Origin: Candidatus Uhrbacteria bacterium
GTDB taxonomy: Bacteria; Patescibacteriota; Patescibacteriia; GWA2-47-26
DNA length: 64,000 nucleotides
Assembly: GCA_016187515.1 (NCBI GenBank)
Contig: JACPJN010000006.1
Span: forward strand, 257,556-321,555
Reading direction: 5' to 3'
In this document: positions 926 to 53,712 of the stretch, piece by piece
Layout of the letters: every line of letters begins with the position of its first letter
How positions within the stretch are numbered: position 1 is the stretch's first letter
Notes under the pieces: model-generated
The model's input: only the letters and a program-made list of their open reading frames with translations
What the model was told of the DNA's origin: nothing
Database searches by the model: none
Made by a program: the position numbers and the translations under genes

Positions 926-1054
926 GTGCGAAGCACGCTAACTTCTCCCCTTAACGTTCTGACACTGGCCAGGCATCAGCCCCTATACATTGCCTTACGG
1001 CTTCGCAGGGACCTGTGTTTTTGGTAAACAGTCGCTTGAGAGACGCTTGCTGCG

Positions 1055-2021: not shown

Positions 2022-2059
<38 letters not shown>

Positions 2060-2639
2060 AGCCTTTACACTTCTTTTCACACTTAGCGGTAATTTAGGGA
2101 CCTTAGACGAAGATCTGGGCTGTTTCCCTTTTGCACGACGGAGCTTAGCCCCCATCTGCTGACTCCCATGGCACCCCTGCGGCATTCGGAGGTTGATTCA
2201 ATTTGACAGCTTGCGCCGCCAAGATCGATTCAGTGCTCTACCTCCGCAGGTAATCCATAGGGCTATACCACAGTATATTTCGGGGAGAACCAGCTATCAC
2301 CCAGTTCGATTGGTATTTCACCTCTAGCCACGGGTCATCCCATAGTGTTGCACGGCTAATGGGTTCGGACCTCCCTCCGCATTTCTGCGGAGTTCATCCT
2401 GCCGATGGCTAGCTCACCGGGTTTCGGGTCTAGTCCACGCTGCTTTTGCACGAATGACTCACGAATGATTTGTGAGCAATTTGTAACAAATTACTCACGA
2501 ATATCAATTTAGTGAGTCATTCGTGCGTTAACGCCCTTTCAGACTTGGTTTCCCTGCGCCTTCGTCCCGTAGGACTTAGACTGGGCAACGCGGAACAAAC
2601 TCGTTGGCTCATTCTTCAATAGGAACACCATCACCGCGC

Positions 2640-2760
2640 ACAGCGCGGAAGCTCCAAATTCCAATTTCCAAATCACAAACAAATTCGAAATCCCAACATT
2701 CAAATCCCAAGTTTGTAATTTGGAATTTGTAATTTGGGTATTGTTTGTAATTTGGTGCTT
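2640..2760. repeat. CAAATTCCAAAT / ATTTGGAATTTG hairpin insertion in the 23S rRNA gene
   Basis: ccaaattccaatttccaaatcacaaacaaattcgaaatcccaac…caagtttgtaatttggaatttgtaatttgggtattgtttgtaatttgg. The same family is found in-frame in leuS at 62879-63060. Confidence 0.55.
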
Positions 2761-4081
2761 GGTTATTGGATATTCCGTGCTATGCACGGCTCTGATTCCT
2801 TGTAAGCGTATGGTTTCAGGTTCTATTTCACCGGCCTCACCGGCCTACTTTTCACCTTTCCCTCACGGTACTGGTTCGCTATCGGTTAGAGAGGAGTATT
2901 TAGCCTTGGCGCATAGTCGCGCCGGATTCCCACGGGATTTCACGAGTCCCGCGGTACTCAAGTATGATCATAGTAAGGCGATAACCCCTTTCGCGTACGG
3001 GACTATCACCCTCTTTGGTTGGCCTTTCCAGACCATTCTACTAGGGAAGTTACGCTACGTATACCTTACCTCACTATCAAGGCAGTGATCATGACCATCT
3101 TACAACTGCGCTCATCTTTTTAACCCTTGAGTCTTCCACAAAGCGCGTGACACTGCATCTTTCGATGAAGCGCCCGCCTCTCCGCTTTAAGATGAGGGCT
3201 CTAGGCTCATCCCCGTTCGCTCGCCGCTACTAAGGGAATACACGAATGACTCGCCAATGGAGTTACGAATTACCCACAAATAAATTCGTGAGCTATTCGT
3301 CTGCCATTAGTGAGCTATTCGCAATTAGTTTCTTTTCCTCTGGTTACTGAGATGTTTCACTTCACCAGGTTTACTTCTTGCATATTGCTATACAAGATGA
3401 TCCGATGTTAATCGGACCGGGTTGCCCCATTCGGATACCCACGGATCAAAGCTTGCTTGCCAGCTCCCCGTGGCTTATCGCAGGCTGCTGCGTCCTTCAT
3501 CGTCTCTCTCTACCAAGGCATCCACCATACGCCCTTTTGGCACTGAAGCACAAATTTGGATATATGCGCGAATACGCGCGAATCGTCACGTCCCGGTCGC
3601 AAAGCGACCGAGGATCCTCGGCAAAGCCGGGACTTGGACAATCGCGAATAAACGCGAATATGTTATTGCTTGGGTTACTAGTCGAAACTAGCAACTCGTT
3701 TTAGATGCGATTACTCTATATTCAATTGTCAATGGACTCGATAGCGCAGATGGCTACCGCCCGCTGGTTTCGCAGAATCACTATCTGCGCGATCCGCGGC
3801 CGAAAGGCATCTGTGTAATCAAAGGGCCTCGCTTCCAAGCGAGGCCCCAAAATTACACCGAAAAAACACGGCTACCCGCTTGGAAAGATTAATTTCAAGG
3901 TTTTTGCCATATTTTGGCTAAAACTTAGGGCCTCCGGCTACTTCTTATTATCACTCCTACTATGCCACACCCCCAAAATCGTGTCAAGTGCGGCTCCTCC
4001 ACAGGGTATAAACACAAAAAAGAAGCTCCACCTTCGGGTGGAGCAACAAAGGAGCTGGGTCTGTTTTGCATCGAGAGAGAT

Positions 4082-5452: not shown

Positions 5453-5872
5453 TCAGGGGGAAGAAGTGTGGCGACTGATCGGCTCTCCACTATCTCGTCC
5501 ACCACTTGGCCGATCGAGATATGACGCCGGTACGCCCGAGTGATCGACTGCCCGCAGAAGGCAGATCTCCACCCTGCTGCTAGTGAACGCGCGCGCCGCG
5601 GTTGCCCATCCAATAAGTGCTGACACGTGGCTGGCCGGGAGCGCATGGATAAGACGCTGCCAAATCTCGGAGGCGCGCGTTTCCTGCCGCTCAACCTCCT
5701 CCTCGACGCAGCGCAGACAAGCGGTGGTGTCATCTGCAAATCCCATGTGGGGTGCCTCTAAATGAGTATAGAAAAAAACAACCACCCGCTCCCCAAGCAG
5801 GTGGTTTACGATCTCACTCAACGAAATGTACAAGCGCGATGCACTTACTTGCCGGCGGTGCTCATTGCGCAT
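5453..5872 (-). CDS. hypothetical protein (frame uncertain in GC-rich DNA)
   Basis: A 139-aa ORF downstream in the same direction with no clear RBS. A 103-aa ORF in another frame (5428-5739) is an alternative. Confidence 0.25.
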   Translation of the reverse strand: MRNEHRRQVSASRLYISLSEIVNHLLGERVVVFFYTHLEAPHMGFADDTTACLRCVEEEVERQETRASEIWQRLIHALPASHVSALIGWATAARAFTSSRVEICLLRAVDHSGVPASYLDRPSGGRDSGEPISRHTSSP

Positions 5873-10627: not shown

Positions 10628-12103
10628 ATGAATGCACCGCAGCACGCTTGGCAATTCCGTCTTCGACGAGCCCTGAACTGGCTCCCGCTGGGACTGGCCT
10701 ACGCGTTCATGTACATGGGCCGCTACAACCTGACTGTCGCCCAGAAGGCGCTCGGAGACAAGCTCATGCCCCCCGATGATTTCGGCTGGATCTTCGGGAT
10801 CGGCGCCTGGGTGTACGCGCTCTCCTTCCTGATAAACGGCCCGCTGACCGATCGAATCGGCGGCCGGCGCGCCATGCTCTTGGGTACCTTGGGGACGCTG
10901 TCGGCCAACGCGCTCATGGGCTTGACGCTCTACGGCAATACCCACTGGGGGTGGGAGTTCCCGATCTTTGGGACGTTTGTCGCGCTCTACTCGCTCAACA
11001 TGTACTTCCAGAACTTCGGCGCGATCGCGATCGTCACCACCAAGGCGCCCTGGTTCCATGTGGCCGAGCGCGGCACGTTCTCCACCATCTTCGGCGTGAT
11101 CATCTCGCTGGGCATCTTCTTCGCCTTTGACTGGGGCTTCGCGATCGTGGAAGCCACGCGCGGAACGTTCAAGGGCGAACTCGGTTTCTGGGCCAGCGTG
11201 TTCCAAACGCTTGCGGGAACCGGCGGTACCGGAGTCAATCAGAACTGGTGGCTGTTCTTCGCGCCCTCGATTCTTCTGGGGACGATGTGGATCGCCATGG
11301 CGCTCTGGTTGCGCAACAGTCCGGCCGAAGCGGGGTTCAGCAACTTCGCCACTGGCGAAGCCACGCTCTCGACGCACGGTGAGCGCGAACCGGCCCGCGC
11401 AGTGTTTCTCAAACTCTGGCAACACCCCGTGATTCGCATCGTGTGTCTGGTGGAGTTCTGCTCCGGAGTATTGCGCAACGGCGTCATGCACTGGTACCCC
11501 ATGTTCGCCGCCGACGTCGGCTTCAAGAAGGCCTTCCTCGTAACCGCAAACTGGGGACTGACGCTCCTGATCTGCGGCACGATCGGGGCAATTCTCACTG
11601 GCTGGTGCTCGGACAAGCTGTTCCAGTCGCGTCGTGCGCCCATGGCCGGCATCTGCTACGGCCTCATGATCGGTGCGGTAATTCTGCTCATGACCACGCT
11701 TGCGGGCAACCTCTGGTACGCCGGGATCGCCGTGATCCTGATTTCCACGAGCGTGATCGGCGTACACGGAATCTTCTCGGGTACTGCCACAGCGGACTTT
11801 GCCGGAACCAAGAACACCGGCGCGGCCGTCGGCATCGTGGACGGCATGGTGTACTTGGGAACCGGTTTGCAGGCAATCGTGATCGGCCAAATCGTTCCCC
11901 AAGGAGCGGCAGCCAAAGTGGCGGGAAACTGGGGCTGGTGGCCGACCGTACTGCTGCCGTTTACCATCCTCGGCCTGATCCTCGCGCTCCGCATCTGGAA
12001 CGCGAAGCCACAAGCGAAGGCCACGGTAGTGTCCGGCTCGGACGCGAACTGGCAGATCGCGCGCGGAAAAAATGACGGGAGAGGAATCGAACCCGTAGCG
12101 TAG
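10628..12103 (+). CDS. MFS transporter
   Basis: The 491-aa protein has about 12 hydrophobic segments. It carries MYMGRYNLTVAQ and DRIGGRR signatures. A GAAAGAGGTG RBS is present. The gene is very GC-rich. Confidence 0.8.
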   Translation: MNAPQHAWQFRLRRALNWLPLGLAYAFMYMGRYNLTVAQKALGDKLMPPDDFGWIFGIGAWVYALSFLINGPLTDRIGGRRAMLLGTLGTLSANALMGLTLYGNTHWGWEFPIFGTFVALYSLNMYFQNFGAIAIVTTKAPWFHVAERGTFSTIFGVIISLGIFFAFDWGFAIVEATRGTFKGELGFWASVFQTLAGTGGTGVNQNWWLFFAPSILLGTMWIAMALWLRNSPAEAGFSNFATGEATLSTHGEREPARAVFLKLWQHPVIRIVCLVEFCSGVLRNGVMHWYPMFAADVGFKKAFLVTANWGLTLLICGTIGAILTGWCSDKLFQSRRAPMAGICYGLMIGAVILLMTTLAGNLWYAGIAVILISTSVIGVHGIFSGTATADFAGTKNTGAAVGIVDGMVYLGTGLQAIVIGQIVPQGAAAKVAGNWGWWPTVLLPFTILGLILALRIWNAKPQAKATVVSGSDANWQIARGKNDGRGIEPVA

Positions 12104-12188: not shown

Positions 12189-13520
12189 TTACCGCGGCAG
12201 CGGGCTGAATTTTTGTCCAAGTTCCCAATTCGGATCCACATCCAGTTTTTGCCACGGGGTAAACCCCCACACCAAAGGCCGCCGTTTTCCCCGTTTTGGT
12301 GTGGGGGTAAATTGTTTTGCCTGCGCCATAAAATAGCCGGCCACGGCAATCATGGCGGCGTTGTCCGTCGCGTATGCGACGGATGGCATAGAGCATAGAG
12401 CAGATGGCGTATGGCGTTTTATGGCTTCTACCAACCGCTGGCGTAATCTGGCGTTCGCTGCTACGCCGCCACCGAGGAGAACGGTTTTTACTTTGTATTT
12501 TTTTGCGGCACGAATGGTTTTTGAAACCAATACATCCACCACCGCCTCTTGAAATGCATAACACAAGGAAGCTAAGAGCTTAGGGCTAAGGGCATAGAGT
12601 TTTGCTCTATGCTCTATGCTCTGCGCTCTAAGCCAATAGAGTACGGCGGTCTTAAGACCGGAAAAACTAAAATCAAAATCCGGAGAATCAATCATGGGGC
12701 GAGGGAAAGTTAGGTGATTAGGTACGTAGGTAGTTAGGTACGTAGGTTTGTTTCCCGCGTACCTTCGTACCTTAGTACCTTCGTACCATTTCTCGGCTTC
12801 CCGAGAAATGGCCGGCCCTCCCGGGTAGCCGAGATTAAGCATCTTCGCCACTTTATCAAACGCCTCTCCGGCCGCATCGTCGCGCGTCTCACCAACAATT
12901 TTAAAATCCAAATGTCCGCGCATGAGCACCAGTTCAGTGTGGCCACCACTCACAATCAGCGCAAGCGCTGGGAATTGCATAGGGCTTAGGGCGTAGTGCG
13001 TAGGGTTTTGCTCTATGCTATATGCTCTATGCTCTATGCTGCGAATTTTCTCTCCGAGAAAATTCGCATACACATGTCCCGCCAAATGATTAACCGCCAC
13101 CACTGGTTTTTTCCAAAGCCAAGAAAGAGTGCGGGCCACCTCCACCCCCACAAGCAATGAGGTTGCCAATCCCGGACCGGCAGTAACGGCAATGGCGTCA
13201 ATTGAAGAAGACCAAGCGACTAAGCGACTAAGCGACTGGGTCGTTTGCTTTTTCTTAATCTCTTCATTTCTTAATCCCTTAATCGCTCTTTCAATCACCG
13301 GAATAATCTTCTCCACATGCGCCCGCGCCGCCACCTCCGGAACCACTCCGCCCGTTTTCGCATGAATTTTAATCTGGGACGCTATAATGTTACTTAAAAC
13401 TGAACAACGAAACGACTGAACAACCGGTTGTTTCGTTGTTTCGTTGCTCCGTCGTTCAGTTATCTCCACCACCGCCGCCGCCGTCTCATCACAACTCGTT
13501 TCAATCCCCAAAATTCTCAT
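12189..13520 (-). CDS. tsaD: tRNA N6-adenosine threonylcarbamoyltransferase TsaD (Kae1/Gcp), lengthened by about 100 aa of in-frame repeat insertions
   Basis: MRILGIETSCDETAAAVV…, HLAGH, GGGVAAN. The protein is 443 aa against about 340 aa typical. The extra segments coincide with hairpin repeat blocks at 12381-12425, 12571-12633, 12711-12811, 12977-13067 and 13201-13300. Confidence 0.85.
   Translation of the reverse strand: MRILGIETSCDETAAAVVEITERRSNETTKQPVVQSFRCSVLSNIIASQIKIHAKTGGVVPEVAARAHVEKIIPVIERAIKGLRNEEIKKKQTTQSLSRLVAWSSSIDAIAVTAGPGLATSLLVGVEVARTLSWLWKKPVVAVNHLAGHVYANFLGEKIRSIEHRAYSIEQNPTHYALSPMQFPALALIVSGGHTELVLMRGHLDFKIVGETRDDAAGEAFDKVAKMLNLGYPGGPAISREAEKWYEGTKVRRYAGNKPTYLTTYVPNHLTFPRPMIDSPDFDFSFSGLKTAVLYWLRAQSIEHRAKLYALSPKLLASLCYAFQEAVVDVLVSKTIRAAKKYKVKTVLLGGGVAANARLRQRLVEAIKRHTPSALCSMPSVAYATDNAAMIAVAGYFMAQAKQFTPTPKRGKRRPLVWGFTPWQKLDVDPNWELGQKFSPLPR
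12571..12633. repeat. heptamer hairpin (GCTAAGA/GCATAGA family) in-frame in tsaD
   Basis: gctaagagcttagggctaagggcatagag-tttt-gctctatgctctatgctctgcgctctaagc. Confidence 0.65.
12711..12811. repeat. octamer hairpin (AGGTACGT units) followed by a second short hairpin, in-frame in tsaD
   Basis: aggtacgtaggtagttaggtacgtagg – tttgtttcccgcg – taccttcgtaccttagtaccttcgtacc, then ccatttctcggcttcccgagaaatgg. Confidence 0.6.
12977..13067. repeat. heptamer hairpin followed by a short hairpin, in-frame in tsaD
   Basis: gcatagggcttagggcgtagtgcgtagggttttgctctatgctatatgctctatgctctatgc, then gcgaattttctctccgagaaaattcgc. Confidence 0.6.
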
Positions 13521-15579: not shown

Positions 15580-16368
15580 TTAAAATTCCTTTGCCTTACC
15601 AAGCTCCATTTTTACAAATTCAATGCCGCTTCCCGCCAGTCCGGTTTCAAAAATTTTGTACCACGGTACTTCCGGCCATTTTACCATAGCGTCGTGAATG
15701 GGGATAGCATATTTAGGTTTGACTTTTTTTACAAATTCCAATCCTTCCCGCACCGCCATCCATGGCGCCACCACTGGTACGGCCAGAATCTCGGCCTGTA
15801 CTTCTTCTGACGGCGTAACACAATCGCCCGGGTGGAATAATTTGCCCGCAATGAGAAAGCCGACATTTTCCACGCGCGGGAAATGATCCGCAATATGGCC
15901 GTGGTCACAGGCAATAGCACGAATAGTTACTCCCTGCACCGTACGAATCTCGCCTGGCTTCAAAATCTCAATCTTAAATTTAATACCATTCTCCGTAAGC
16001 ACCTTTTTTACTCCCTCATTCGTCAGTATCAACCCTGATTCTTGATTCATGATTCCTGATTCATAAATCTGCTTCAGCGCCTCCGGATCCGTATGATCCG
16101 CGTGCTCATGTGTCAAAAGTAAAACATTGCACTGCGGCAAATCCTCCGGCTTCAATAATTTCCGCGTGGTTCCGCGTACGGCCGCATGGTAAGCGCATGA
16201 ATGATCACACCCCATGCCGCGGCCGCCTTCCGCGTGGTTCCGCGAAGCCGTGGAAAAAGAAATTTCTCCATCATTGCCTTTAAACACATAACTGCCCGGG
16301 TCAATCAAAATCCGCGCGGTTCCTTCCTCAATAAACAAACACGAATGTCCGTATTTAGTAACACGCAT
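15580..16368 (-). CDS. MBL-fold metallo-hydrolase
   Basis: VLLLTHEHADHTD (HxHxDH) and a CDHGH motif. Confidence 0.75.
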   Translation of the reverse strand: MRVTKYGHSCLFIEEGTARILIDPGSYVFKGNDGEISFSTASRNHAEGGRGMGCDHSCAYHAAVRGTTRKLLKPEDLPQCNVLLLTHEHADHTDPEALKQIYESGIMNQESGLILTNEGVKKVLTENGIKFKIEILKPGEIRTVQGVTIRAIACDHGHIADHFPRVENVGFLIAGKLFHPGDCVTPSEEVQAEILAVPVVAPWMAVREGLEFVKKVKPKYAIPIHDAMVKWPEVPWYKIFETGLAGSGIEFVKMELGKAKEF

Positions 16369-16488
16369 AGTTTTGTTCTGGTATGGTTATACAACCAAAA
16401 ACCGAACCTATTTTGAACGGAATTGACTAATTGCCGCTGAACGAAGTTCCAACATTCTTTGGACAAAACCAGATAATAAGGAAGTCCG

Positions 16489-20049: not shown

Positions 20050-20163
20050 TAACTTACTAAATAAAATGAAAATAATCAAACAAATTTCTTGGCGGCGCAT
20101 TTCGCAAAGCGAAATACAAAATTCGGCGGCGGCAAAAAAGCGAGGGCGGGCCTAGGCCGCACT

Positions 20164-20220
20164 CCGCGCGGTTCCTTCTTCAATAAATAAACACGAATGC
20201 CCGTACTTTGTAATGCGCAT
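20164..20220 (-). pseudogene. diverged duplicate of the 5' end (start codon plus about 19 codons) of the MBL-hydrolase gene
   Basis: 57 bp at about 88% identity to 16312-16368. It encodes MRITKYGHSCLFIEEGTAR, against MRVTKYGHSCLFIEEGTAR in the original. Confidence 0.6.
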
Positions 20221-20221
20221 A

Positions 20222-20905
20222 TTAGCAATTTTCGCAAAGCCCTTCGATATATCCTTTAATCCTATAAAAAAGAACCCGTTTATTAATTCTAATGCTGACC
20301 GTGCCGAATGGAAGTGATCGCTTTGGCCGCTTTAATCTACTTGCACTGCTAAGCTGTTGTGTAATGTAAAATATATCAACCGGCAATTTGGTGACTTTTG
20401 ACCAGAATATCTTTGCTTCTTCAATATCGAGATTGGGATGAACCTGGATTTGTGCGCGTATCAATTCATCAGGAACATTTAGCACCTCCCTTACAAAACG
20501 CATAAATAACGCAATGAGGCGCGGGTCGGAATTTGCAATGGCTACACGAATGTTTTTCCGACTGTGCTCGCTTTTGGTACCCTCTCCCCAGTACAAGGCA
20601 GCTCCAATGAGCAACAATTCTCTTCGTGACAAATCACCAATCTCCTCCATCGCGCGAGTATGAGCAGTTTTATTTTCTTGTAAGATAGCTTCGGTGCGAT
20701 CTTTATTGTATTGCAATAAACCGCGCTCCTGCGCAAGCAATACATTGTGCTCAAGCCGTTTCTTTGCTTCGGTTGGTAGTACAAGATCCCGAAACCAATA
20801 GCTCAATGTACCCTTCGAAGGAATACTGAGTATTTTTCTGATTTCATTATAACTCTTCCCTTGTAATCGGAGGGCTATAGCTTGTTGTTTTTCTAATCGT
20901 CTCAT
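20222..20905 (-). CDS. HTH-domain protein with a LAGLIDADG-like (homing-endonuclease-like) domain
   Basis: The N-terminal HTH reads LRLQGKSYNEIRKILSIPSKGTLSYW. The central segment LLLIGAALYWGEGTK…IRVAIANSDPRLIALFMRFVRE resembles the LAGLIDADG_3 pattern. The assignment is tentative. Confidence 0.4.
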   Translation of the reverse strand: MRRLEKQQAIALRLQGKSYNEIRKILSIPSKGTLSYWFRDLVLPTEAKKRLEHNVLLAQERGLLQYNKDRTEAILQENKTAHTRAMEEIGDLSRRELLLIGAALYWGEGTKSEHSRKNIRVAIANSDPRLIALFMRFVREVLNVPDELIRAQIQVHPNLDIEEAKIFWSKVTKLPVDIFYITQQLSSASRLKRPKRSLPFGTVSIRINKRVLFYRIKGYIEGLCENC

Positions 20906-21413: not shown

Positions 21414-21482
21414 AGGCGAGTTGCATTTTTGAAATATACACGCTACACTAAAGCAATTGCCATAACCCCTCCTACCCTTATC

Positions 21483-21516
21483 TTTCCGCCCGAGGCGGAT
21501 CCGCCTCGGGCGGAAA
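21483..21516. promoter_or_regulatory. perfect 34-bp palindrome immediately upstream of the Hsp20 gene (candidate operator or terminator)
   Basis: tttccgcccgaggcggatccgcctcgggcggaaa. It does not match the CIRCE consensus. Confidence 0.3.
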
Positions 21517-21537
21517 GGGGAGGAAATAAAAGAAATT

Positions 21538-25158: not shown

Positions 25159-26628
25159 TTGTCAAGCCCCTGTACAATAAGCCATTATATGGCCTCGCTT
25201 ACCCGGCTGATCGCGCGCAATACTGCCATCCATACGACGGGCAAACTTCTCAATCTGCCGATCGTGCTTATCGTCGTGGCCGTGATGACCCGCGCGCTTG
25301 GTCCCGAGGGCTTTGGCGGATATTCCACCATTATCGCCTTTTTGCAATTTTTCGGCATCACCGCCAATTTCGGCCTGCTGCTGACGGCCAACCGGCTCTT
25401 GGGAGAAACCGCGACGGAAACCGCGCGCAGCCGGCTAATGTCGAATTTATTCACCCTCCGGTTCTTTTCCTCGCTTATCTTTTTGTCCCTGGCTCCGCTC
25501 CTGGCCCTTTTATTCCCCTACCCCGCCGCGGTTAAGCAGGGCATGTTCATTACGGCGCTCTCGTTTTTAGCCATCAGCTTGGCCGAGACCTTGGTACCCG
25601 TCTTCCAAAGAGAGCTGCGCATGGGTTATGTGGCGGCCGCCGAACTGGCCGCCCGCTTCACCTTGCTTGCCGGAGTGGCGCTAACGGCGTATTTTCACGC
25701 CGGACTATTGTGGTTTTTGGCCGCGATTGTCGCTGGCAGCGCGATGCAATTCCTCATGATGCGGATCTTTACGGGAAAATTTATTGAACTGCATCTGGCC
25801 TTCGATTGGACGGTGTGGCGCAAAATTATCGGCATTTCCTGGCCCATTGGCCTATCTATCCTTTTCAATTTAATCTACCTTAAAGCCGACACCATTATTC
25901 TCTCGGCCTTGCGCACCCAGACCGAAGTGGGTTTTTACGGGGCCGCTTATCGGGTGCTGGATCAGCTGACCGGGTTTGCCACCATGTTTATCGGACTGCT
26001 CATGGTCCCGCTTACCGCCGCTTGGGTGGCCCGCGATCAAACCAGATTTCGGCGCATTTACCAGCGGGCTTTTGATGCCTACGCGGTCGTGGCCTGGCCG
26101 CTGTTAGTCGGGGCCTGGCTGATTGGCGAGCGACTGATGATTTTCGTCGCTGGCAGCGCGTTTGCGGCTTCGGGAAAAATTCTGGCGATCCTGATGATTG
26201 GGATGACTTTTGTATTTTTCTCCACGCTGTTTGGCCATGTAGTGGTGGTCGTAGACAAACAGCGCCCGATGATTTGGGGTTATGTGATTACCGCGGTAGC
26301 CGGTTTCAGCGCCTACGCGCTTACGATTCCGCGCTTTGGAATTTGGGGCGCGGCTTGGTCTACGGTTGGCGCTGAAGCCCTGATCATGATCTTAACCGCG
26401 GCCATGGTCTGGCGCGCCACCCGCGCGCCGCTGGAATTGTCTATCTTTTCCAAAGGATTGCTGGCTTCCATTATTTTAGGGCTATTCTTATACTTCACCC
26501 GCGTCTTCCCGCTGGCTATTCCATTATTTGGCGGCGCGCTCATCTACTTTGCCGCCCTCTACGCTTTCGGTGGAATTAAAAAAGAACTTATCCGCGATAT
26601 TGTTTCCTTACGCAATTCCCCCTCTTAA
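25159..26628 (+). CDS. polysaccharide biosynthesis protein / oligosaccharide flippase (MOP/Wzx-like)
   Basis: 489 aa with about 14 TM helices, typical of Wzx/MurJ-like exporters. The start could instead be 25189. Confidence 0.7.
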   Translation: MSSPCTISHYMASLTRLIARNTAIHTTGKLLNLPIVLIVVAVMTRALGPEGFGGYSTIIAFLQFFGITANFGLLLTANRLLGETATETARSRLMSNLFTLRFFSSLIFLSLAPLLALLFPYPAAVKQGMFITALSFLAISLAETLVPVFQRELRMGYVAAAELAARFTLLAGVALTAYFHAGLLWFLAAIVAGSAMQFLMMRIFTGKFIELHLAFDWTVWRKIIGISWPIGLSILFNLIYLKADTIILSALRTQTEVGFYGAAYRVLDQLTGFATMFIGLLMVPLTAAWVARDQTRFRRIYQRAFDAYAVVAWPLLVGAWLIGERLMIFVAGSAFAASGKILAILMIGMTFVFFSTLFGHVVVVVDKQRPMIWGYVITAVAGFSAYALTIPRFGIWGAAWSTVGAEALIMILTAAMVWRATRAPLELSIFSKGLLASIILGLFLYFTRVFPLAIPLFGGALIYFAALYAFGGIKKELIRDIVSLRNSPS

Positions 26629-26711
26629 GATAAGAGGGGTAGGGGGAGTTATGAATAGTTCGTAACCCCTCCCAACCTCCCCTTAACCTAAGGGGAGGAG
26701 ATCGGGTTATT

Positions 26712-28121
26712 ATGCTCTACTTACTACTTACTACTTACTACTTACTTTTCGCCCTCCTGGCCTGGAAACGGCTTCACTGGGCGGTACTTTTGATTATTGC
26801 TACCCTTCCAAGCTACCTAATCCGTTTTCATCTAGGACCAATCCCGATTACACTGCTTGAGGGAATGATACTCATTGTCGTCGCAGTATGGCTGCTACGA
26901 CAGCTTAGAGCTAAGGGCTTAGAGCTAAGGGCATTTGAAACTCTACGCTCTACGCTCTACGCCCTACGCTGGCCGCTTGCGCTATTTTTAATAGCGGCCA
27001 CCGCGGCCATGTTCGTTGCTCCGGATTGGCGCGCTGCGGCCGGTATTTGGAAGGCCTACTTTATTGAACCGACTATTTTCTTCTTGATCTTGCTTGATCT
27101 CAAACTTCACCACCCCGCCCTTCTTGATAACAACAAAATTATCCGCGCACTTTCTGTTTCCGCTCTCCTGCTTTCCGTCTACGCTATCTGCCAGCGCTTG
27201 ACCGGCTTTGGAATTCCTGCGCCATGGGACGCGGAGCTGCGGGTTACCAGCATTTTCCCATATCCCAACGCGCTTGGCCTTTTCCTTGCGCCTCTTATAC
27301 CGCTGATGATTGGAATGTTGATAGAATCTAGAAGCTGGAAAATAGAAAATAGAAAATTCTACTTACTACTTACTACTTACTACTTACTCGCAATTATCTC
27401 TTCAATAATTGCGATCGCTTTCGCCAAATCCACCGGCGCGCTGGTGGGAATCGGGGCAGGATTAATTACTATGGGTATTTTGTGGTTGCGGCAAAAATCG
27501 TGCGGCCGCACTCAATCTACCGTAGTCGCTTTGGGAATATTTGCTACACTTGCGGCACTACTTCTCATATTCTCTCTTCCAGCGCGAGATGAACTTCTTC
27601 TCCGCGACTGGTCCGGCCATGTCCGCCGCACGCAGTGGAGCGAGACCATTGTCATGCTCAAAGACCACCCACTACTTGGCGCCGGACTCGCGGGCTACCC
27701 CGAAACACTCAAACCATACCACAAGGCAACATACATCGAGATTTTTCAGTATCCGCACAACATCGTGCTCAATTTCTGGTCCGAAACCGGCCTGCTTGGC
27801 CTTCTTGCCTTTGCATGGCTTACTATCATATTTTTCCGCATAGCACTACTCAACACTCGTAACCCCTCCCAACCTCCCCTTACCCTAAGGGGAGGAGACA
27901 AAACAATCCCCCCTCTTAAGGTAAGAGGGGGCGGGGGGAGTTATGAACTCATCCCCATCGCAGCCATGGCAAGTATGACCGTGCTCCTCGTCCATGGTCT
28001 GGTTGACGTTCCCTACTTCAAGAATGACCTTGCCATTTTGTTCTGGATCGTGTATGCTTTGGGCGTTGTAAATAATAAGAACTCTTATGCAACATCTAAC
28101 CAAACTCTTCAAACTCATTGA
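26712..28121 (+). CDS. O-antigen ligase / polymerase-like (Wzy_C domain) membrane protein, with in-frame repeat insertions
   Basis: Polytopic membrane protein with HNIVLNFWSETGLLGLLAF (Wzy_C). Repeat blocks lie at 26715-26750, 26904-26968, 27355-27390 and 27859-27945. Confidence 0.7.
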   Translation: MLYLLLTTYYLLFALLAWKRLHWAVLLIIATLPSYLIRFHLGPIPITLLEGMILIVVAVWLLRQLRAKGLELRAFETLRSTLYALRWPLALFLIAATAAMFVAPDWRAAAGIWKAYFIEPTIFFLILLDLKLHHPALLDNNKIIRALSVSALLLSVYAICQRLTGFGIPAPWDAELRVTSIFPYPNALGLFLAPLIPLMIGMLIESRSWKIENRKFYLLLTTYYLLAIISSIIAIAFAKSTGALVGIGAGLITMGILWLRQKSCGRTQSTVVALGIFATLAALLLIFSLPARDELLLRDWSGHVRRTQWSETIVMLKDHPLLGAGLAGYPETLKPYHKATYIEIFQYPHNIVLNFWSETGLLGLLAFAWLTIIFFRIALLNTRNPSQPPLTLRGGDKTIPPLKVRGGGGSYELIPIAAMASMTVLLVHGLVDVPYFKNDLAILFWIVYALGVVNNKNSYATSNQTLQTH

Positions 28122-32177: not shown

Positions 32178-33182
32178 ATGGAGATGCTGATTATCATCGG
32201 TTCCGGGCCGGCCGGATATACGGCGGCGATTTACGCCGCGCGGGCAAACCTTAAGCCGCTTTTATTTGAAGGCAGCGAACCCGGCGGACAGCTCACGACC
32301 ACCTCGGACGTGGAAAATTACCCGGGCTACCCGGATGGCGTGCCCGGTCCAAAAATGATGGAGGATTTAAAAAAGCAAGCCGAAAGATTTGGAACACGGA
32401 TCATGAATAAGACGGTGACGAGAGTTGAGTTTGGTACTCCCACCCCTCCTAACCTCCCCTCGGGCAGGGGAGGAAACAAACCAATTTCTCCCCCTTTTCA
32501 AGGGGGAGTTAGAGGGGGTCTGTTTAAAGTTTGGTGTGGTGAGGAAATGTATGAATCCCGCGCGGTGATAATCGCGACCGGCGCTTCGGCCAAACGGCTG
32601 GGGTTAGAAAATGAAAAAAAATTATACGGGAAAGGGGTCTCGGCCTGCGCAACGTGTGATGGATTTTTTTTCAAAGAAAAAATCGTGGTGGTGGTTGGCG
32701 GCGGAGACACCGCTATGGAAGAATCACTTTTCCTCACGAAATTCGCCAAGAAGGTCTATGTTATACACCGCCGCGATGAATTCCGCGCTTCAAAAATAAT
32801 GCTGGAGCGCGCGCAAAAAAACCCGAAGATTGAATTTATTCTAAATACCGTGGTGGAAGATGTGCTGGGAGCGGATGTTGGCCATGTTACTGGTGTCAAA
32901 CTTAATAACTTAATCACTAAATCACTTAATAACTTGCCCTGTGACGGTGTTTTCGCCGCCATCGGCCACGAGCCCAATACCAAAATCTTTGCCGGACAAA
33001 TTGAACTGGACCAAAAAGGATACGTCGTAACCAAGGCCGGCTCTACTATGACATCTGTTGAAGGAGTGTTTGCCGGCGGCGACTGCGTTGACCACCAGTA
33101 TCGCCAGGCCGTCACCGCCGCCGGACTGGGCTGCGCAGCGGCAATTGATGCGGAGCGCTGGCTGGAAGCTCAAACCCATTAG
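32178..33182 (+). CDS. trxB: thioredoxin-disulfide reductase, with two in-frame repeat insertions
   Basis: IIGSGPAGYTAAIYAAR, CATCDG redox-active site, GGGDTAMEE. The extra segments lie at 32448-32521 and 32897-32934. Confidence 0.85.
   Translation: MEMLIIIGSGPAGYTAAIYAARANLKPLLFEGSEPGGQLTTTSDVENYPGYPDGVPGPKMMEDLKKQAERFGTRIMNKTVTRVEFGTPTPPNLPSGRGGNKPISPPFQGGVRGGLFKVWCGEEMYESRAVIIATGASAKRLGLENEKKLYGKGVSACATCDGFFFKEKIVVVVGGGDTAMEESLFLTKFAKKVYVIHRRDEFRASKIMLERAQKNPKIEFILNTVVEDVLGADVGHVTGVKLNNLITKSLNNLPCDGVFAAIGHEPNTKIFAGQIELDQKGYVVTKAGSTMTSVEGVFAGGDCVDHQYRQAVTAAGLGCAAAIDAERWLEAQTH
32448..32521. repeat. G/C-rich palindromic module (CCTCCCC…GGGGAGG family) in-frame in trxB
   Basis: cccacccctcctaacctcccctcgggcaggggaggaaac … ttctcccccttttcaagggggagttagagggggtc. 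Confidence 0.6.
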
Positions 33183-33186
33183 GACT

Positions 33187-34542
33187 ATGTCCACTTTTCA
33201 ATCTGCCCTTACTCAACTGGAGCGGGCGGCAAAACTGATCAATCTTGATCCGAGAATTTTAAAAGTTTTGGAAACGCCAGAGCATTTGCATGAAAAAACC
33301 CTGACGATAAAAATGGATAACGGATCCGAGCAGGAGTTTCACGCGTATCGGGTACAACATAACAATTCCCGCGGCCCGTACAAAGGCGGCATCCGTTTTC
33401 ATCCGCAAGTTGACATGGACGAAGTCAAGGCGCTCGCGCTCTGGATGACGATTAAAACCGCCGTGGTGGATATTCCATTTGGCGGAGCCAAGGGCGGCAT
33501 CACGGTTGATCCGAAAAAACTCTCTGCCCGTGAACTTGAAGAACTCTCCCGTCAATATGCGCGGGCGTTTTTTGATATTTTAGGTCCGGACAAAGATGTC
33601 CCGGCGCCGGATGTAAATACCAATCCGCAGATTATGGGGTGGATGACGGATGAATATGCAAAATTGGCAAAGGGTGGAGAGCAAAGGGCAAAGGGCTCTA
33701 CGCCATATGCTATAGGCCCTACGCAGCTGCAAGCGACGTTTACCGGAAAATCCATTGCTCATGGAGGATCTGAAGGTCGCGAAGAAGCAACCGGCTATGG
33801 AGGTTTTGTAGTGCTGGAGGCACTCCGTGTTAAACAAAGGGTAAAGAGCTTAGAGCAAAGAGCAAACAACTCTACGCCCTATGCCCTACGCCCTACGCCA
33901 ACAGTTGCCGTTCAGGGTTTTGGAAATGTTGGTTATTTTTTTGCGGAGCACGCGCACCGGGCCGGATACAAACTCATCTCCATCTCCGATTCCCGCGGCG
34001 CAATTTTGGATAAACGCACGCTCGGCATGGATCCGGAAAATATTATGAAGACCAAAAAGGAGCGCGGCACAATTGGCGGATGCTATTGTATCGGCACGGT
34101 TTGCGACTGTGAAAACTATACGCAGATTTCAAATGAAGAAATATTGGAGCTTCCGGTTGATATCTTAGTTCCGGCCGCGCTTGAGGGTGTGCTCCACAAG
34201 GATAACGCGCACAAAGTGAAAGCCAAAATTATACTGGAGATGGCCAATGGCCCAACCACTCCGGAGGCCGAGCGCATACTGCTTGAGCGCGGCACGCTCA
34301 TTGTACCGGACGTACTGGCTAATGCCGGCGGAGTCGCCACTTCGTACTTTGAATGGAAGCAGAATATGGCAGGAGAAAAGTGGAACAAGGCACAAGTGTT
34401 AGCGCAACTGAAGGAAAAATTGGAGTATGCCTTTACCGAGGTCTGGCGTACTGCACAGGAACTCCACACCGATCTCCGCACTGCGGCCTATGCCGTGGCG
34501 CTCGAGCGTTTGAAACAAGCGGTTACAGTTACCAGAACTTGA
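33187..34542 (+). CDS. gdhA: Glu/Leu/Phe/Val dehydrogenase (glutamate dehydrogenase), with two in-frame repeat insertions
   Basis: KGGIRFHP, GGAKGG, GFGNVG (Rossmann). The start was set at MSTFQ (33187). Insertions lie at 33667-33724 and 33841-33900. Confidence 0.85.
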   Translation: MSTFQSALTQLERAAKLINLDPRILKVLETPEHLHEKTLTIKMDNGSEQEFHAYRVQHNNSRGPYKGGIRFHPQVDMDEVKALALWMTIKTAVVDIPFGGAKGGITVDPKKLSARELEELSRQYARAFFDILGPDKDVPAPDVNTNPQIMGWMTDEYAKLAKGGEQRAKGSTPYAIGPTQLQATFTGKSIAHGGSEGREEATGYGGFVVLEALRVKQRVKSLEQRANNSTPYALRPTPTVAVQGFGNVGYFFAEHAHRAGYKLISISDSRGAILDKRTLGMDPENIMKTKKERGTIGGCYCIGTVCDCENYTQISNEEILELPVDILVPAALEGVLHKDNAHKVKAKIILEMANGPTTPEAERILLERGTLIVPDVLANAGGVATSYFEWKQNMAGEKWNKAQVLAQLKEKLEYAFTEVWRTAQELHTDLRTAAYAVALERLKQAVTVTRT

Positions 34543-48880: not shown

Positions 48881-48960
48881 TAATTTCGATAATATTTCGC
48901 CGCGTCTTCAGGAGAGATGGGGTTGATGATCAGTCCCGAGCCGATCTCCACCCAGCCCAG
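48880..48960 (-). pseudogene. diverged duplicate of the 3' end (about 23 codons plus stop) of the GalT-like gene
   Basis: Encodes …VEIGSGLIINPISPEDAAKYYRN*. It is about 85% identical to 50373-50454, the true C-terminus …VEIGSGLIINPVSPEDAAKYYRS*. Confidence 0.6.
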
Positions 48961-50372: not shown

Positions 50373-51293
50373 TCAACTCCGATAATACTTTGCCGCGTCT
50401 TCGGGGGAAACCGGATTGATGATAAGTCCCGAGCCGATCTCCACCCCAGCCCAAATTGAGCCGCGGGGGGTGATTTTCATGTAAAGATGCTGATCTTCGT
50501 CATGGATAACTTGGTGGAAGTAGAAATTGTAAGGAAGGTTAAGCGCGGCGATTTTTTTCAAAATGCGCTTTAGGATTTTTGCCCAAGAGAGCCGTTCGGC
50601 GTCATTTAAGAGCGTCACATTATCCAGGTGCCGGCGCGGCAGAATCCATACTTCGTAATTGTGCATAGAGGCGTAGGGAGTAAAGGCAATCACTTGCGCA
50701 TCCTCAAACACCAGCCGCGGCCCCGTGCGTTCGCGCGCGATCACATCGCAATACACACAACGGCCGGTACGCAGTTTATACGCTTGCACCTTCTGCGACT
50801 TATCAAAGAGGTGCGGAGGCAAGAAATGGGTGGCAAAAATCTGCGAATGCGCATGTTGGATTGAGGCGCCGGCCGGTCCGCCCGCGTTTTTAAAAATGAG
50901 AATGTATTCGATTTTTTTGTCTTTGGCGATAGCGTCCGTGCGCGCCGCATAGGTGGAGAGTAACTTCGCCACGTGTGGATCAGACAACTCTTCGAGATGG
51001 GTGCCATGTTTAGGGGTTTCCACCACGACTTCCTGCACGCCGTAGGCCTTGGGATTTTCCAAAGAGACGGCGGGGAATTTATTAGGGACGACTTTTATTT
51101 GCCACACTTTATTTCCTCCAACTTCCAGGACATATCCCTCCTGATCCAATTTTTCCGGGCAAAATCGGCAAGGAGGCGGCACCACTTTTTGCGGCGCAGT
51201 TGGCGCAACCTCATGCGGCCGCACCCCCCGCCTAGGCGCAATGATCACGTACTTGTCTTGAATATAATCTTTGCGGATCTCGGATCCCAGCAT
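50373..51293 (-). CDS. galactose-1-phosphate uridylyltransferase-like (GalT / HIT superfamily) protein
   Basis: CRFCPE zinc motif near the N-terminus. The HxHxQ active site reads SIQHAHSQ. Confidence 0.7.
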   Translation of the reverse strand: MLGSEIRKDYIQDKYVIIAPRRGVRPHEVAPTAPQKVVPPPCRFCPEKLDQEGYVLEVGGNKVWQIKVVPNKFPAVSLENPKAYGVQEVVVETPKHGTHLEELSDPHVAKLLSTYAARTDAIAKDKKIEYILIFKNAGGPAGASIQHAHSQIFATHFLPPHLFDKSQKVQAYKLRTGRCVYCDVIARERTGPRLVFEDAQVIAFTPYASMHNYEVWILPRRHLDNVTLLNDAERLSWAKILKRILKKIAALNLPYNFYFHQVIHDEDQHLYMKITPRGSIWAGVEIGSGLIINPVSPEDAAKYYRS

Positions 51294-53351: not shown

Positions 53352-53712
53352 TGGCGTGCCCCTCCTTTGGGCGTGAGAATGGTTTGCAAAACCTTTGGCA
53401 GCCGAGGTCAAGGAACAATCATCCTTGTCGGCCGCCGTGTAAATGTATGAGATACATGCACTTGCATGGCGGTCGAATAGCACTGCTTTCCATTGTAAAG
53501 AACGACAAATAACTATACCACACTTTTGCGCATTTGTCAAGTCCGGAATGTCTCAACAGAGGCAAAATGCTTTAAATAAGGGTTTTCATAACCCACCCTA
53601 CCCTCCCTTATCTTAAGGGAGGGATTGGAGACGCAAAAGGCGGCCTTTTTCAGGCCGCCCATTCGTGAGTCATTCGTTTATATTCGCGCGCTATTTGTTT
53701 TAAGTTCGTGAG

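What the first reader, a model, noticed from the sequence alone, without database searches (positions are those of the whole stretch)
26617..27945. Modular G/C-rich palindromic elements: the same two hairpin modules occur in opposite order in an intergenic copy and an intragenic in-frame copy
Module A is cgtaacccctcccaacctccccttaMcctaaggggaggag. Module B is ccccctcttaagRtaagagggg…gggggagttatgaa. They appear as B-A at 26617-26700, overlapping the flippase stop codon, and as A-B at 27859-27945, where they are in-frame inside the O-antigen-ligase-like gene and translate to …NTRNPSQPPLTLRGGDKTIPPLKVRGGGGSYELIP…. Related modules lie in trxB (32448-32521, in-frame), upstream of hsp20 (21462-21480) and downstream of rpoC (53585-53645). 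The shuffled module order suggests composite elements assembled from independently mobile hairpin units.
Basis: seen in the sequence. Interest (0 to 1): 0.55.

Follow-up and report, generated by a model that had tools for sequence, protein, structure and literature searches.

The report
Triplex-type DNA repeats inserted inside genes
The two "modules" are one kind of short G/C-rich repeat (hairpin plus a mirror-image G tract, the BoxC / intrastrand-triplex type long known from E. coli) sitting in opposite orientations; in this Uhrbacteria genome and many other bacteria they are inserted in frame inside ordinary genes and kept unchanged even at silent codon positions.

Summary
In detail: B-A at 26617-26700 and A-B at 27859-27945, with none expected by chance. 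The interpretation needs correcting. A and B are not two kinds of module. They are sequence variants of one ~45-nt unit read on opposite strands: C-rich arm, 3-5 nt loop, G-rich arm, 2-3 nt linker, then a G-rich tract that mirrors the G-rich arm. This is the known class II purine-motif intrastrand-triplex architecture (BoxC/PIT/TMECO; Hoyne 2000, Holder 2015). The window holds seven such units against 0.17 in shuffles. "Shuffled order" is simply the two possible inverted arrangements, and both are common in 117 loci from many phyla. Orthologous empty sites show the units are gained or lost as blocks, singly or in pairs. Four of the seven lie in frame in genes (O-antigen-ligase-like gene, trxB). 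In orthologues at 47-62% protein identity the inserted units are 95% identical, with 0/45 third-codon changes against 57/108 in the flanks. The window's units are a distinct sequence subfamily: no E. coli match and no TMECO pattern. A relative's trxB carries an E. coli-type BoxC copy at the same site. How they spread is unknown; no transposase link was found. This is a new variant of a known kind.

The parts
26615..26656 (+). Unit B1, read on the + strand. C-rich arm CCCCTCTTA 26619-26627, loop AGA, G-rich arm TAAGAGGGG 26631-26639, linker TAG, mirror tract GGGGAGTTA 26643-26651, tail TGAAT. The flippase-like gene's stop codon TAA (26626-26628) lies inside it.
   Evidence: 8 allowed triads of 9
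26660..26702 (-). Unit A1, same architecture read on the - strand. Complement of the mirror tract at 26663-26672, linker 26673-26675, arms 26676-26685 and 26689-26698, loop 26686-26688. Intergenic, 11-14 nt upstream of the ligase ATG at 26712. Its G-rich arm contains GGAGG.
   Evidence: 9 allowed triads of 10
27857..27899 (-). Unit A2, 41/43 identical to A1, differing in the loop. In frame inside the ligase-like gene.
27896..27908 (.). A-rich spacer between A2 and B2 (AGACAAAACAAT...). The L118 orthologue has a 3-nt indel here, which keeps the reading frame.
27905..27947 (+). Unit B2. Arm CCCCCTCTTA 27909-27918, loop AGG, arm TAAGAGGGGG 27922-27931, linker CG, mirror tract GGGGGAGTTA 27934-27943. 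In frame inside the ligase-like gene.
   Evidence: 9 allowed triads of 10
32442..32473 (-). Unit A3 inside trxB: CCTCCCCT / AGGGGAGG / GGAGGGGT.
32488..32519 (+). Unit B3 inside trxB: CTCCCCCTT / AAGGGGGAG / GAGGGGGTC. With A3 it makes a 26-codon insertion that is absent from all solved thioredoxin reductases and from close orthologues.
53585..53627 (-). Singlet unit between the rpoC terminator and the next gene: CCCTCCCTTA / TAAGGGAGGG / GGGTGGGTTA. The mirror tract has T opposite the A-T pair.
21462..21525 (-). Degenerate unit upstream of hsp20. Mirror tract and C-rich arm are intact, the G-rich arm is truncated, and a perfect 34-nt palindrome (21483-21516) is nested in the loop.
   Evidence: read directly from the sequence; not detected by the scan
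25159..26628 (+). Polysaccharide flippase-like gene (Pfam Polysacc_synt). Its last codons and stop are supplied by unit B1.
26712..28121 (+). O-antigen-ligase-like gene (Pfam Wzy_C), host of the A2-B2 pair at residues about 383-411.
32178..33182 (+). Thioredoxin reductase gene, host of the A3-B3 pair at residues about 88-113.

Best explanation
Each 'module' is a ~45-bp repeat of the BoxC / potential-intrastrand-triplex (PIT, 'TM') kind. It has a C-rich arm, a short loop, a complementary G-rich arm, a 2-3 nt linker, and a G-rich tract that is the mirror image of the G-rich arm. When the G-rich strand is single-stranded, the hairpin can take the tract as a third strand through G.G-C, A.A-T and T.A-T triads (class II purine motif).

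Shown here: the units exist as one family in both orientations. They occur as singlets and as inverted pairs of either polarity. They are present or absent as blocks at orthologous sites. They sit in frame inside real genes. Arm and tract covary.

Inferred: they spread as non-autonomous, structure-defined DNA, most likely while the DNA is single-stranded during replication or repair, using an unidentified host or element function. Inside genes, only copies survive that add a multiple of three bases, carry no stop codon in the used frame, and land in tolerant surface loops. These are translated as Pro/Gly-rich linkers (PPLxLRGG...). Once fixed, they are held by selection on the nucleic-acid structure rather than on the peptide, which is why silent positions do not change. 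No host function is demonstrated. The intergenic B-A copy incidentally supplies the flippase stop codon and separates two genes that overlap in a relative.

The confidence given (0.8) is for the identification as BoxC/PIT-type repeat units that are gained and lost as blocks. The dispersal mechanism and triplex formation in cells are much less certain.
For: Architecture: all 7 window units have 8-9 consecutive allowed triads, loops of 3-5 nt and linkers of 2-3 nt. The scan finds 7 units against 0.17 in shuffles.

Mirror covariation: 143 of 511 strand-readings of asymmetric hairpins have a perfect downstream mirror tract. The direct-copy control gives 27 and the upstream control 2. With the units imposed by the search pattern excluded, the counts are 50, 20 and 0. 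The tract base opposite an A-T pair is A 203, T 194, G 15, C 9; A and T are exactly the two bases allowed in purine-motif triads (PMC4666352).

The tract does not need a partner: it is kept in the singlet at 53590 and in the B-only orthologue L127.

Known family: Holder 2015 describes the same architecture and inverted pairs that always combine two variants. A relative's trxB (L126) carries, at the window's insertion site, a unit that fits the E. coli TMECO pattern. It is 85-93% identical to copies present in 5340 of 5426 E. coli genomes.

Gain and loss: L120 has overlapping flippase and ligase genes (ATGA) with no B-A pair and no intragenic A-B pair. L122 also lacks A-B, L118 has A-B, and L127 has B only. 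The trxB insert is present in P0123, P0124, P0127 and P0128 but absent in P0125 and P0126 at similar identity.

Nucleotide-level constraint: against L118 the element is 85/89 identical with 0/30 third-position changes, while the flanks are 122/171 identical with 32/57 third-position changes (p=1.7e-8). Against L127, unit B has 0/15 third-position changes against 25/51 in the flanks (p=4.6e-4). In both comparisons most of the few substitutions (3 of 4 against L118, both against L127) lie in loops, linkers or the spacer (read). Orthologous B copies are more alike (95%) than the two B copies within the window (84%).

Generality: 87 of 284 units in 117 loci lie inside long ORFs. Ten of these ORFs were checked and all are real genes: Mfd, MmeI/Eco57I methylases, AcrB, Fmt, XseA, PrmC and others.
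Against: Triplex formation is only a sequence inference here. For E. coli BoxC the triplex forms on isolated single strands in vitro but was not detected in double-stranded DNA or by in vivo footprinting (PMC4666352). In pairs, the two tracts can instead base-pair with each other: as an outer stem in A-B or as a central hairpin in B-A. So part of the tract conservation could reflect ordinary Watson-Crick pairing.

No dispersal mechanism was found: no target-site duplication, no transposase, almost nothing in phage or plasmid collections. The window's units match neither the TMECO pattern nor any E. coli sequence.

The trxB site carries units with different stems in three lineages. This fits repeated insertion or replacement better than simple vertical descent under constraint, so the two gene cases do not tell one story. 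The 117 loci were selected with a 19-mer from module A, which biases the sample.
Confidence: 0.8

Rival explanations
1. The pairs are REPIN-like or MITE-like elements, that is, REP doublets mobilised in trans by a single-copy Y1/HUH tyrosine transposase (RAYT or IS200/IS605 type). On this reading the mirror tract serves as a recognition or guide sequence, not as a triplex strand.
For: The inverted doublets with a spacer fold into strong single-strand structures, z = -3.1 to -5.2 against shuffles, as REPINs do (PMC3116915). The outer ends are conserved (TCGTAAC ... GTTATGAA) at four independent sites. Singlets look like remnants. REPs inside genes are documented (PMC3733652).
Against: The units lack the GTAG or CGTC end tag that defines the two REP superfamilies (sequences). 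A validated IS200 TnpA probe found no Y1 gene in the window and only one in about 0.95 Mb of loci. That one gene (L059) is flanked by unrelated GTCCC...GGGAC hairpins, not by these units. REP families are mostly lineage-specific, whereas these units recur across phyla. Holder 2015 found no transposase remnants near E. coli copies.
Confidence: 0.15
2. The units are cis-acting RNA elements, for example hairpins that sequester the Shine-Dalgarno sequence, RNA thermometers, terminators or mRNA stabilisers, selected for regulating the neighbouring genes.
For: The G-rich arm of A1 contains GGAGG 11-14 nt before the ligase start codon. The degenerate copy lies upstream of hsp20. The hairpins are stable.
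Against: Units occur in both orientations relative to transcription, in the middle of ORFs, and downstream of the rpoC terminator. No Rfam family matches; there are only spurious miRNA-hairpin hits far below threshold. The GGAGG-to-ATG spacing is long: 11-14 nt for the ligase gene and about 14-17 nt for hsp20. PIT elements showed no promoter or terminator activity in E. coli (PMC4666352). Purine-motif triplexes are reported not to form in RNA (same paper).
Confidence: 0.05
3. The inserted peptide (PPLxLRGG...) is what selection acts on, as a functional Pro/Gly-rich linear motif, and the DNA symmetry is a by-product.
For: The insert is retained in frame in orthologues. In the AlphaFold model, residues 88-113 of TrxB form an unstructured loop between two strands.
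Against: The ligase and trxB copies are read in different frames of the element. Intergenic copies exist. Third-codon positions are invariant (0/45) while flanking third positions are about half changed, which peptide selection cannot produce. The AlphaFold model is of modest quality overall (mean pLDDT 65).
Confidence: 0.03
4. The resemblance is chance similarity of low-complexity poly-C/poly-G sequence.
For: The sequences are strongly G/C-biased.
Against: No pattern match is expected in shuffles. The scan finds 7 structured units against 0.17 in shuffles. The same three-part architecture recurs in 311 units across 117 loci.
Confidence: 0.01

Closest known systems
BoxC / PIT elements / TMECO intrastrand triplex motifs (Bachellier 1990s; Hoyne et al. 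2000; Holder et al. 2015, PMC4666352)
   Same: Both have the C-rich arm, loop, G-rich arm, short linker and mirror G-rich tract (class II purine motif). The stems are G/C-rich and 8-10 nt long. Copies are highly conserved. Inverted pairs always join two sequence variants. Neither is linked to a transposase. A relative of this genome carries an E. coli-type copy, 85-93% identical, at the window's trxB site.
   Different: The window's units are a separate sequence subfamily: stems CCTCCCCTTA and CCCCCTCTTA, with TTA/TAA extensions that give T.A-T triads. They do not fit the TMECO pattern and have no E. coli match. E. coli copies are 'always intergenic', whereas here 4 of 7 lie in frame inside genes. 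The host is a Candidate Phyla Radiation bacterium rather than a proteobacterium or cyanobacterium.
REPINs / REP-BIME elements with RAYT transposases (Bertels & Rainey 2011, PMC3116915; Di Nocera 2013, PMC3733652)
   Same: Both consist of short palindromic units found as singlets and as inverted doublets that fold into larger hairpins. Both are assembled mosaic-fashion from unit variants. Both are occasionally intragenic.
   Different: These units have no GTAG or CGTC tag and no associated RAYT was found. They carry an extra mirror tract that REPs lack, and they are distributed across phyla.
Rickettsia palindromic elements (RPE; reviewed in PMC10969869)
   Same: Both are palindromic repeats inserted in frame into unrelated housekeeping genes, translated as extra surface peptides and tolerated by the protein.
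   Different: RPEs are about 100-150 bp, A/T-rich and restricted to Rickettsia. They encode a conserved peptide in a single frame and have no triplex-type mirror tract.

Membership tests
Intrastrand triplex motif, class II purine type (PIT / ITxF definition) | Pyrimidine arm, loop, purine arm, loop and reverse-Hoogsteen tract, in that order on one strand | tested here: met
   All 7 window units have this order, 3 on the + strand and 4 on the - strand.
Intrastrand triplex motif, class II purine type (PIT / ITxF definition) | Stem of 6-15 triplets with at most one mismatch, and loops of 1-6 nt (Holder 2015) | tested here: met
   Each unit has 8-9 allowed triads out of 8-10, a first loop of 3-5 nt and a linker of 2-3 nt.
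Intrastrand triplex motif, class II purine type (PIT / ITxF definition) | The third strand uses only G.G-C, A.A-T or T.A-T triads and covaries with the purine arm | tested here: met
   The base opposite an A-T pair is A 203, T 194, G 15, C 9. Perfect mirror tracts number 143, against controls of 27 and 2. Without the units imposed by the search pattern, the counts are 50, 20 and 0.
Intrastrand triplex motif, class II purine type (PIT / ITxF definition) | The single strand actually folds into a triplex (CD, NMR, melting) | not testable with these tools
   ViennaRNA models Watson-Crick pairs only. For E. coli BoxC the triplex was shown in vitro but not in vivo.
BoxC / TMECO in the strict sense (E. 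coli) | Sequence pattern CCCTCNCCC N3-6 GGGNGAGGG N3 GGGNGAGGG | tested here: not met
   There are 0 matches in the window. The pattern is met by units in the relative L126.
BoxC / TMECO in the strict sense (E. coli) | Sequence similarity to E. coli copies | tested here: not met
   The window A-B pair has no blastn match in 5,426 E. coli genomes. The L126 unit matches at 85-93%.
BoxC / TMECO in the strict sense (E. coli) | Always intergenic | tested here: not met
   4 of 7 units lie inside ORFs 26712-28121 and 32178-33182.
BoxC / TMECO in the strict sense (E. coli) | Inverted pairs combine two different sequence variants | tested here: met
   All three window pairs join an A-type stem (GGGGAGG) with a B-type stem (GAGGGGG or GGGGGAG). 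Compare.
REP / REPIN-RAYT | An unpaired GTAG or CGTC tag at one end of the palindrome | tested here: not met
   The unit ends read ...GGGGTTACGA and ...GAGTTATGAA.
REP / REPIN-RAYT | Inverted doublets that fold as a hairpin in single-stranded DNA | tested here: met
   Folding energies are -22 to -25 kcal/mol, z = -3.1 to -5.2.
REP / REPIN-RAYT | A cognate RAYT (Y1 transposase) gene flanked by the repeats | tested here: inconclusive
   There is no Y1 gene in the window. One was found in about 0.95 Mb of loci and it is flanked by unrelated hairpins. The rest of the source genome could not be examined.
MITE | Terminal inverted repeats plus a target-site duplication and a parent insertion sequence | tested here: inconclusive
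   The pair ends are inverted (TCGTAAC / TTCATAAC). No consistent duplication is seen at the filled sites in the window, L118 or L128, and no parent IS was seen. The flanks are too diverged to define junctions exactly.
Rickettsia palindromic elements | In-frame insertion of a palindromic repeat into unrelated genes | tested here: met
   The host genes are the ligase-like gene and trxB here. Elsewhere they include Mfd, Fmt, XseA, PrmC, AcrB and others.
Rickettsia palindromic elements | Sequence homology to RPE families | not tested
   No RPE sequences were compared. Composition and length differ.

The most novel reading that the evidence does not exclude
These triplex-type units may be a cross-phylum, structure-defined mobile DNA. 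On this reading they insert repeatedly at the same permissive or preferred sites of conserved genes. Supporting observations are three lineages with different stems at one trxB codon, and a Candidate Phyla Radiation copy up to 93% identical to E. coli BoxC. After insertion they would be kept by purifying selection on a three-stranded DNA fold inside coding sequence. That would make them functional for the host or for an unknown enzyme that recognises the triplex, not decaying junk.
Probability: 0.2. Interest if true: 0.75.

Novelty: new variant of a known kind. Interest (0 to 1): 0.55.

Why it matters
BoxC/PIT elements have been known since the 1990s, yet neither a function nor a means of spread has been established. 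In E. coli they are purely intergenic, which makes selection on them hard to measure. In-frame copies provide a built-in control. Silent codon positions should drift freely, yet here they are frozen (0/45 changed against 57/108 in the flanks). Arm, complement and mirror tract also change together between lineages. This offers a direct comparative test of whether a three-stranded DNA fold is under selection in vivo. It also shows that these repeats reshape proteins, adding 26-30 residue Pro/Gly loops to TrxB, Fmt, Mfd, PrmC, XseA and others, in many uncultivated bacteria. Finally, annotators should recognise that peptides of the 'PPLxLRGG / GEGxGEV' kind in metagenomic proteins are translated repeats.

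Tried and rejected
- **Rfam.** The gathering-threshold search found nothing at the elements. The E-value search gave only miRNA-precursor hits of 16-30 bits against cut-offs of 58-142, which reflect a generic long hairpin.
- **Literature search with sequence strings.** All hits were irrelevant primers and promoters.
- **Exact-protein look-up of the ligase.** Not on record.
- **Phage or plasmid vector.** One viral contig (L123) in 2.9 million matched the 19-mer; it carries about 5 units. blastn found nothing in INPHARED phages, PLSDB plasmids or E. coli genomes for the window pair.
- **RAYT / IS200 association.** None found.
- **Target-site duplication.** None is consistent across filled sites.
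- **'Circle junction' reading of B-A.** The idea was a right end joined to a left end. It was dropped because the TTAYGAA tail belongs to every single unit, including the singlet.
- **G-quadruplex reading.** It does not explain the mirrored A/T positions.
- **AlphaFold2 of TrxB.** The model is mediocre (mean pLDDT 65). It shows only that residues 88-113 are a low-confidence coil between two strands. No fold search was run.
- **Metagenome scan.** Not used. The closest ligase relative among 5.8 billion proteins is 62% identical, so near-identical strains with empty alleles are unlikely to be found.
Full report
**Observation**

The A hairpin core CTCCCCTTANCCTAAGGGGAG occurs at 26677-26697 and 27874-27894. 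The B core CCCCTCTTAAGRTAAGAGGGG occurs at 26619-26639 and 27910-27930. No match is expected in 100 dinucleotide-preserving shuffles, even with three mismatches allowed. The repeat finder independently pairs 26660-26701 with 27857-27898 (98%) and 26613-26646 with 27904-27937 (88%).

The upstream ORF 25159-26628 (Pfam Polysacc_synt) ends with TAA at 26626-26628, inside module B. ORF 26712-28121 (Pfam Wzy_C) reads straight through the A-B copy as ...NTRNPSQPPLTLRGGDKTIPPLKVRGGGGSYELIP.... The trxB copy and the copy downstream of rpoC are real. The copy upstream of hsp20 is a degenerate remnant with a 34-nt perfect palindrome nested in its loop. The source is a Candidatus Uhrbacteria contig of 355,817 bp.

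**What the modules are**

Module B turns out to be the same kind of object as the reverse complement of module A. When all copies are oriented alike, each reads: C-rich arm (8-10 nt), loop (3-5 nt), complementary G-rich arm, linker (2-3 nt), then a G-rich tract that is the mirror image, not the complement, of the G-rich arm. For example, A on the - strand is CCTCCCCTTA-GGT-TAAGGGGAGG-TTG-GGAGGGGTTA. B on the + strand is CCCCCTCTTA-AGG-TAAGAGGGGG-CG-GGGGGAGTTA.

All seven window units show 8-9 consecutive positions at which the tract could lie antiparallel on the G-rich arm as G.G-C, A.A-T or T.A-T triads. A scan for this three-part architecture finds exactly these seven units: 26619-26650 (+), 26665-26698 (-), 27862-27895 (-), 27909-27942 (+), 32442-32473 (-), 32488-32519 (+) and 53590-53623 (-). 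It also returns one overlapping re-reading of A1. Block shuffles give a mean of 0.17.

So "A-B" is a pair with the tracts pointing outward, and "B-A" is a pair with the tracts pointing inward. With Watson-Crick pairing only, A-B folds as an outer stem enclosing two hairpins, and B-A folds as three hairpins in a row. Energies are -22 to -25 kcal/mol, z = -3.1 to -5.2.

**Relatives elsewhere**

These come from Gallionellaceae, Nitrosomonadales, Thiothrix, Nitrospirota, Desulfobacterota, Bacteroidota, Chloroflexota, cyanobacteria and at least a dozen Candidate Phyla Radiation lineages. The flanks show the same architecture, usually with a partner unit.

The loci hold 311 units. Among adjacent pairs, 62 are '-+', 35 are '+-' and 17 are same-strand. 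Both orders are therefore normal for the family.

The mirror relation is not an artefact of my scanner. Among hairpins with an asymmetric purine arm, selected without regard to flanks, 143 of 511 strand-readings have a perfect mirror tract just downstream. A direct-copy control gives 27 and an upstream control gives 2. With the units imposed by the search pattern removed, the counts are 50, 20 and 0. The tract base opposite an A-T pair is A 203, T 194, G 15, C 9, which are the two bases permitted by purine-motif triads. Copying by a polymerase does not generate a mirror repeat, so this symmetry has to be maintained by selection or by recognition of the shape. That last step is inference.

**Known family**

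This is the BoxC / PIT / 'TM' class. It was first seen as a palindromic E. coli repeat, then rediscovered by Hoyne et al. (2000) as potential intrastrand triplex elements, and surveyed by Holder et al. 2015 (PMC4666352).

Holder et al. define class II as pyrimidine arm, purine arm, then reverse-Hoogsteen tract. They find G/C-rich motifs enriched over scrambled genomes. They show a stable triplex for the isolated single strand, but not in duplex DNA or in vivo. They find no promoter, terminator or transposase association. In E. coli the copies are 'always intergenic', and inverted pairs always join a type A with a type B variant.

The window's units meet the structural definition. However, they do not meet the E. 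coli TMECO pattern and have no similarity to E. coli, plasmid or phage sequences. They are a separate subfamily. Rfam has no family for them.

The link to E. coli is nevertheless direct. At the same trxB codon, a relative (L126) carries CCCTCTCCC-TTTAT-GGGAGAGGG-TTG-GGGTGAGGG. This fits the TMECO pattern and is 85-93% identical to copies found in 5340 of 5426 E. coli genomes, with a median of 17 places per genome, none of them annotated.

**Insertion and loss**

L120, an orthologous flippase-ligase-HD locus (ligase 59% identical), has the flippase stop overlapping the ligase start (ATGA) and no intergenic pair. It also lacks the intragenic pair, as does L122. L118 (62% identical) has A-B at the same codon. 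L127 (47% identical) has only B there, with the same left spacer ACAAT and the same right junction. L128 has an A-B pair in a different loop of the same protein.

In TrxB, residues 88-113 have no counterpart in any solved thioredoxin reductase: query 88 then 113 maps to chain residues 102 then 101. Orthologues at 77-80% identity either have an insert at that site (P0123, P0124, P0127, P0128) or lack it (P0125, P0126). L125 gives the empty site, GGCGCACGCCCATTTAAAG.

The three filled trxB sites carry different stems, each internally consistent in all three strands:
- window: CCTCCCC / GGGGAGG / CCCCTCC
- L124: TCCCCTCCC / GGGAGGGGA / CCCTCCCCTC
- L126: CCCTCTCCC / GGGAGAGGG / complement of GGGGTGAGGGG

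This means either three-way compensatory change or repeated insertion at one site.

**Constraint**

Between the window and L118, the 89-nt pair is 85/89 identical with 0 of 30 third-codon positions changed. The flanking coding sequence is 122/171 identical with 32 of 57 third positions changed (p = 1.7e-8). Between the window and L127, unit B has 0/15 third positions changed against 25/51 in the flanks (p = 4.6e-4). Combined, the count is 0/45 against 57/108 (p = 6.5e-12).

Most of the few substitutions are in loops, linkers or the spacer: 3 of the 4 against L118, plus a frame-preserving 3-nt indel in the spacer, and both against L127. The exception is one change in the C-rich arm of the L118 B unit. 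Orthologous B copies are more alike (95%) than the two B copies within the window (84%). That argues for descent with nucleotide-level constraint rather than homogenisation by gene conversion. Selection on the peptide cannot explain invariant silent sites, and the ligase and trxB copies are read in different frames of the element.

**Generality of in-frame copies**

In the 117 loci, 87 of 284 units away from contig ends lie inside long stop-free frames. The ten ORFs checked by Pfam are all real genes: Mfd, two MmeI/Eco57I-type methylases, AcrB, an amine oxidase, a WD40 protein, PrmC, DUF3048, Fmt (with two inserts) and XseA. The inserted peptides look like NPSQPPLxLRGG...PPLxVRGGEGE or TPPNLPLSGEE...SPDKGELEGV. 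An AlphaFold2 model of the window's TrxB is mediocre (mean pLDDT 65), but it places residues 88-113 as a low-confidence coil between two strands.

**Mechanism**

The following are shown:
- one unit family occurs in both orientations;
- units are gained and lost as blocks, singly and in pairs;
- units are translated in frame;
- arm and tract covary;
- silent sites are frozen.

The following are inferred. The units spread as non-autonomous, structure-defined DNA, probably at a single-stranded stage. Gene copies survive only if they keep the frame and sit in loops. They are then held by selection on the nucleic-acid fold.

The following remain unknown: the agent of dispersal, and whether the triplex forms in cells.

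A REPIN/RAYT-type mechanism is the main rival. However, the units lack the GTAG/CGTC tags. No Y1 transposase gene lies in the window. The single Y1 gene in about 0.95 Mb of loci is flanked by unrelated GTCCC...GGGAC hairpins. Regulatory-RNA, peptide-motif and chance readings are weak for the reasons given in their entries.

**Verdict**

The finding is real and well above chance, but it belongs to a known kind of repeat. The 'two modules in shuffled order' are one unit in two orientations. The new elements are:
- its abundance in a Candidate Phyla Radiation genome;
- frequent in-frame residence in housekeeping genes, in contrast to E. coli;
- the codon-position evidence for nucleotide-level selection;
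- different variants occupying one trxB site, including an E. coli-type copy.

I could not find any of this in the literature searched.

Noticed in passing
window 849-923, 2653-2736 (inside the 23S rRNA gene 647-3549, - strand); 12385-13284 (inside tsaD 12189-13520, - strand); 26901-26970 (ligase gene); 33666-33724 and 33833-33899 (gdh 33058-34542); 51289-51321 / 51498-51528: There is a second, unrelated repeat class: inverted pairs of tandem heptamer or octamer arrays such as (GCATAGG)n ... (CTCTAAG)n, which form hairpins. They sit inside protein genes and inside the 23S rRNA gene. TsaD is 443 aa, with the 264-position Pfam profile stretched over residues 41-392. The 23S rRNA gene scores only 1398 bits over its full length. 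The arrays resemble cyanobacterial STRR heptamer repeats (from memory, not tested).
   Followed up: partly
window 26716-26746 and 27358-27388: A 31-nt (CTACTTA)x4.3 array occurs twice, 100% identical, within the ligase gene. Both copies are translated as YLLLTTYYLL in transmembrane-like segments that align with ordinary hydrophobic sequence in homologues.
   Followed up: no
window 21483-21516: A perfect 34-nt palindrome TTTCCGCCCGAGGCGGA|TCCGCCTCGGGCGGAAA is nested in the loop of the degenerate triplex-type unit upstream of hsp20.
   Followed up: no
L076, L079, L083, L098 (Gallionella, Sulfuricellaceae and Gammaproteobacteria; positions of the pattern matches): A ~40-nt sequence (GCGAGCATCCGCTGCGCGGATTGCCTGCTTGACCC...) is inserted, in either orientation, into the hairpin loop (TGA|CAA) of triplex-type units. 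This suggests another small element that targets these loops.
   Followed up: no
L126 10303-10352 and 10359-10390 (trxB of a relative); also 10779-10858, 11777-11808, 20405-20483: This relative of the window genome carries E. coli-type BoxC/TMECO units. A second pair lies at another site in the same trxB. The first unit is up to 93% identical to E. coli copies.
   Followed up: partly
L123 (IMG/VR UViG_3300038466_000063) 3077-3389 and 5795-5838: This was the only viral contig matching the 19-mer. It carries about five triplex-type units within 7.4 kb. It could be a phage of a unit-rich host or a misbinned fragment.
   Followed up: no
L125 10942-12330: In the Uhrbacteria relative whose trxB lacks the insert, a reverse transcriptase (RVT_1) gene and a bAvd-like gene lie directly downstream of trxB. 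This looks like a diversity-generating retroelement. The window has gdh in that position instead.
   Followed up: no
L059 200-900: A Y1 (IS200-like) transposase gene in a Patescibacteria contig is flanked by GTCCC(N3-5)GGGAC hairpins, a REP/RAYT-like arrangement. These hairpins are unrelated to the triplex-type unit 350 nt away.
   Followed up: partly
window 48882-48953 vs 50375-50446; 16311-16369 vs 20163-20221: Two further direct repeats, 85% and 88% identical over 59-72 nt, lie at or near the ends of neighbouring - strand ORFs. They may reflect paralogous gene ends.
   Followed up: no
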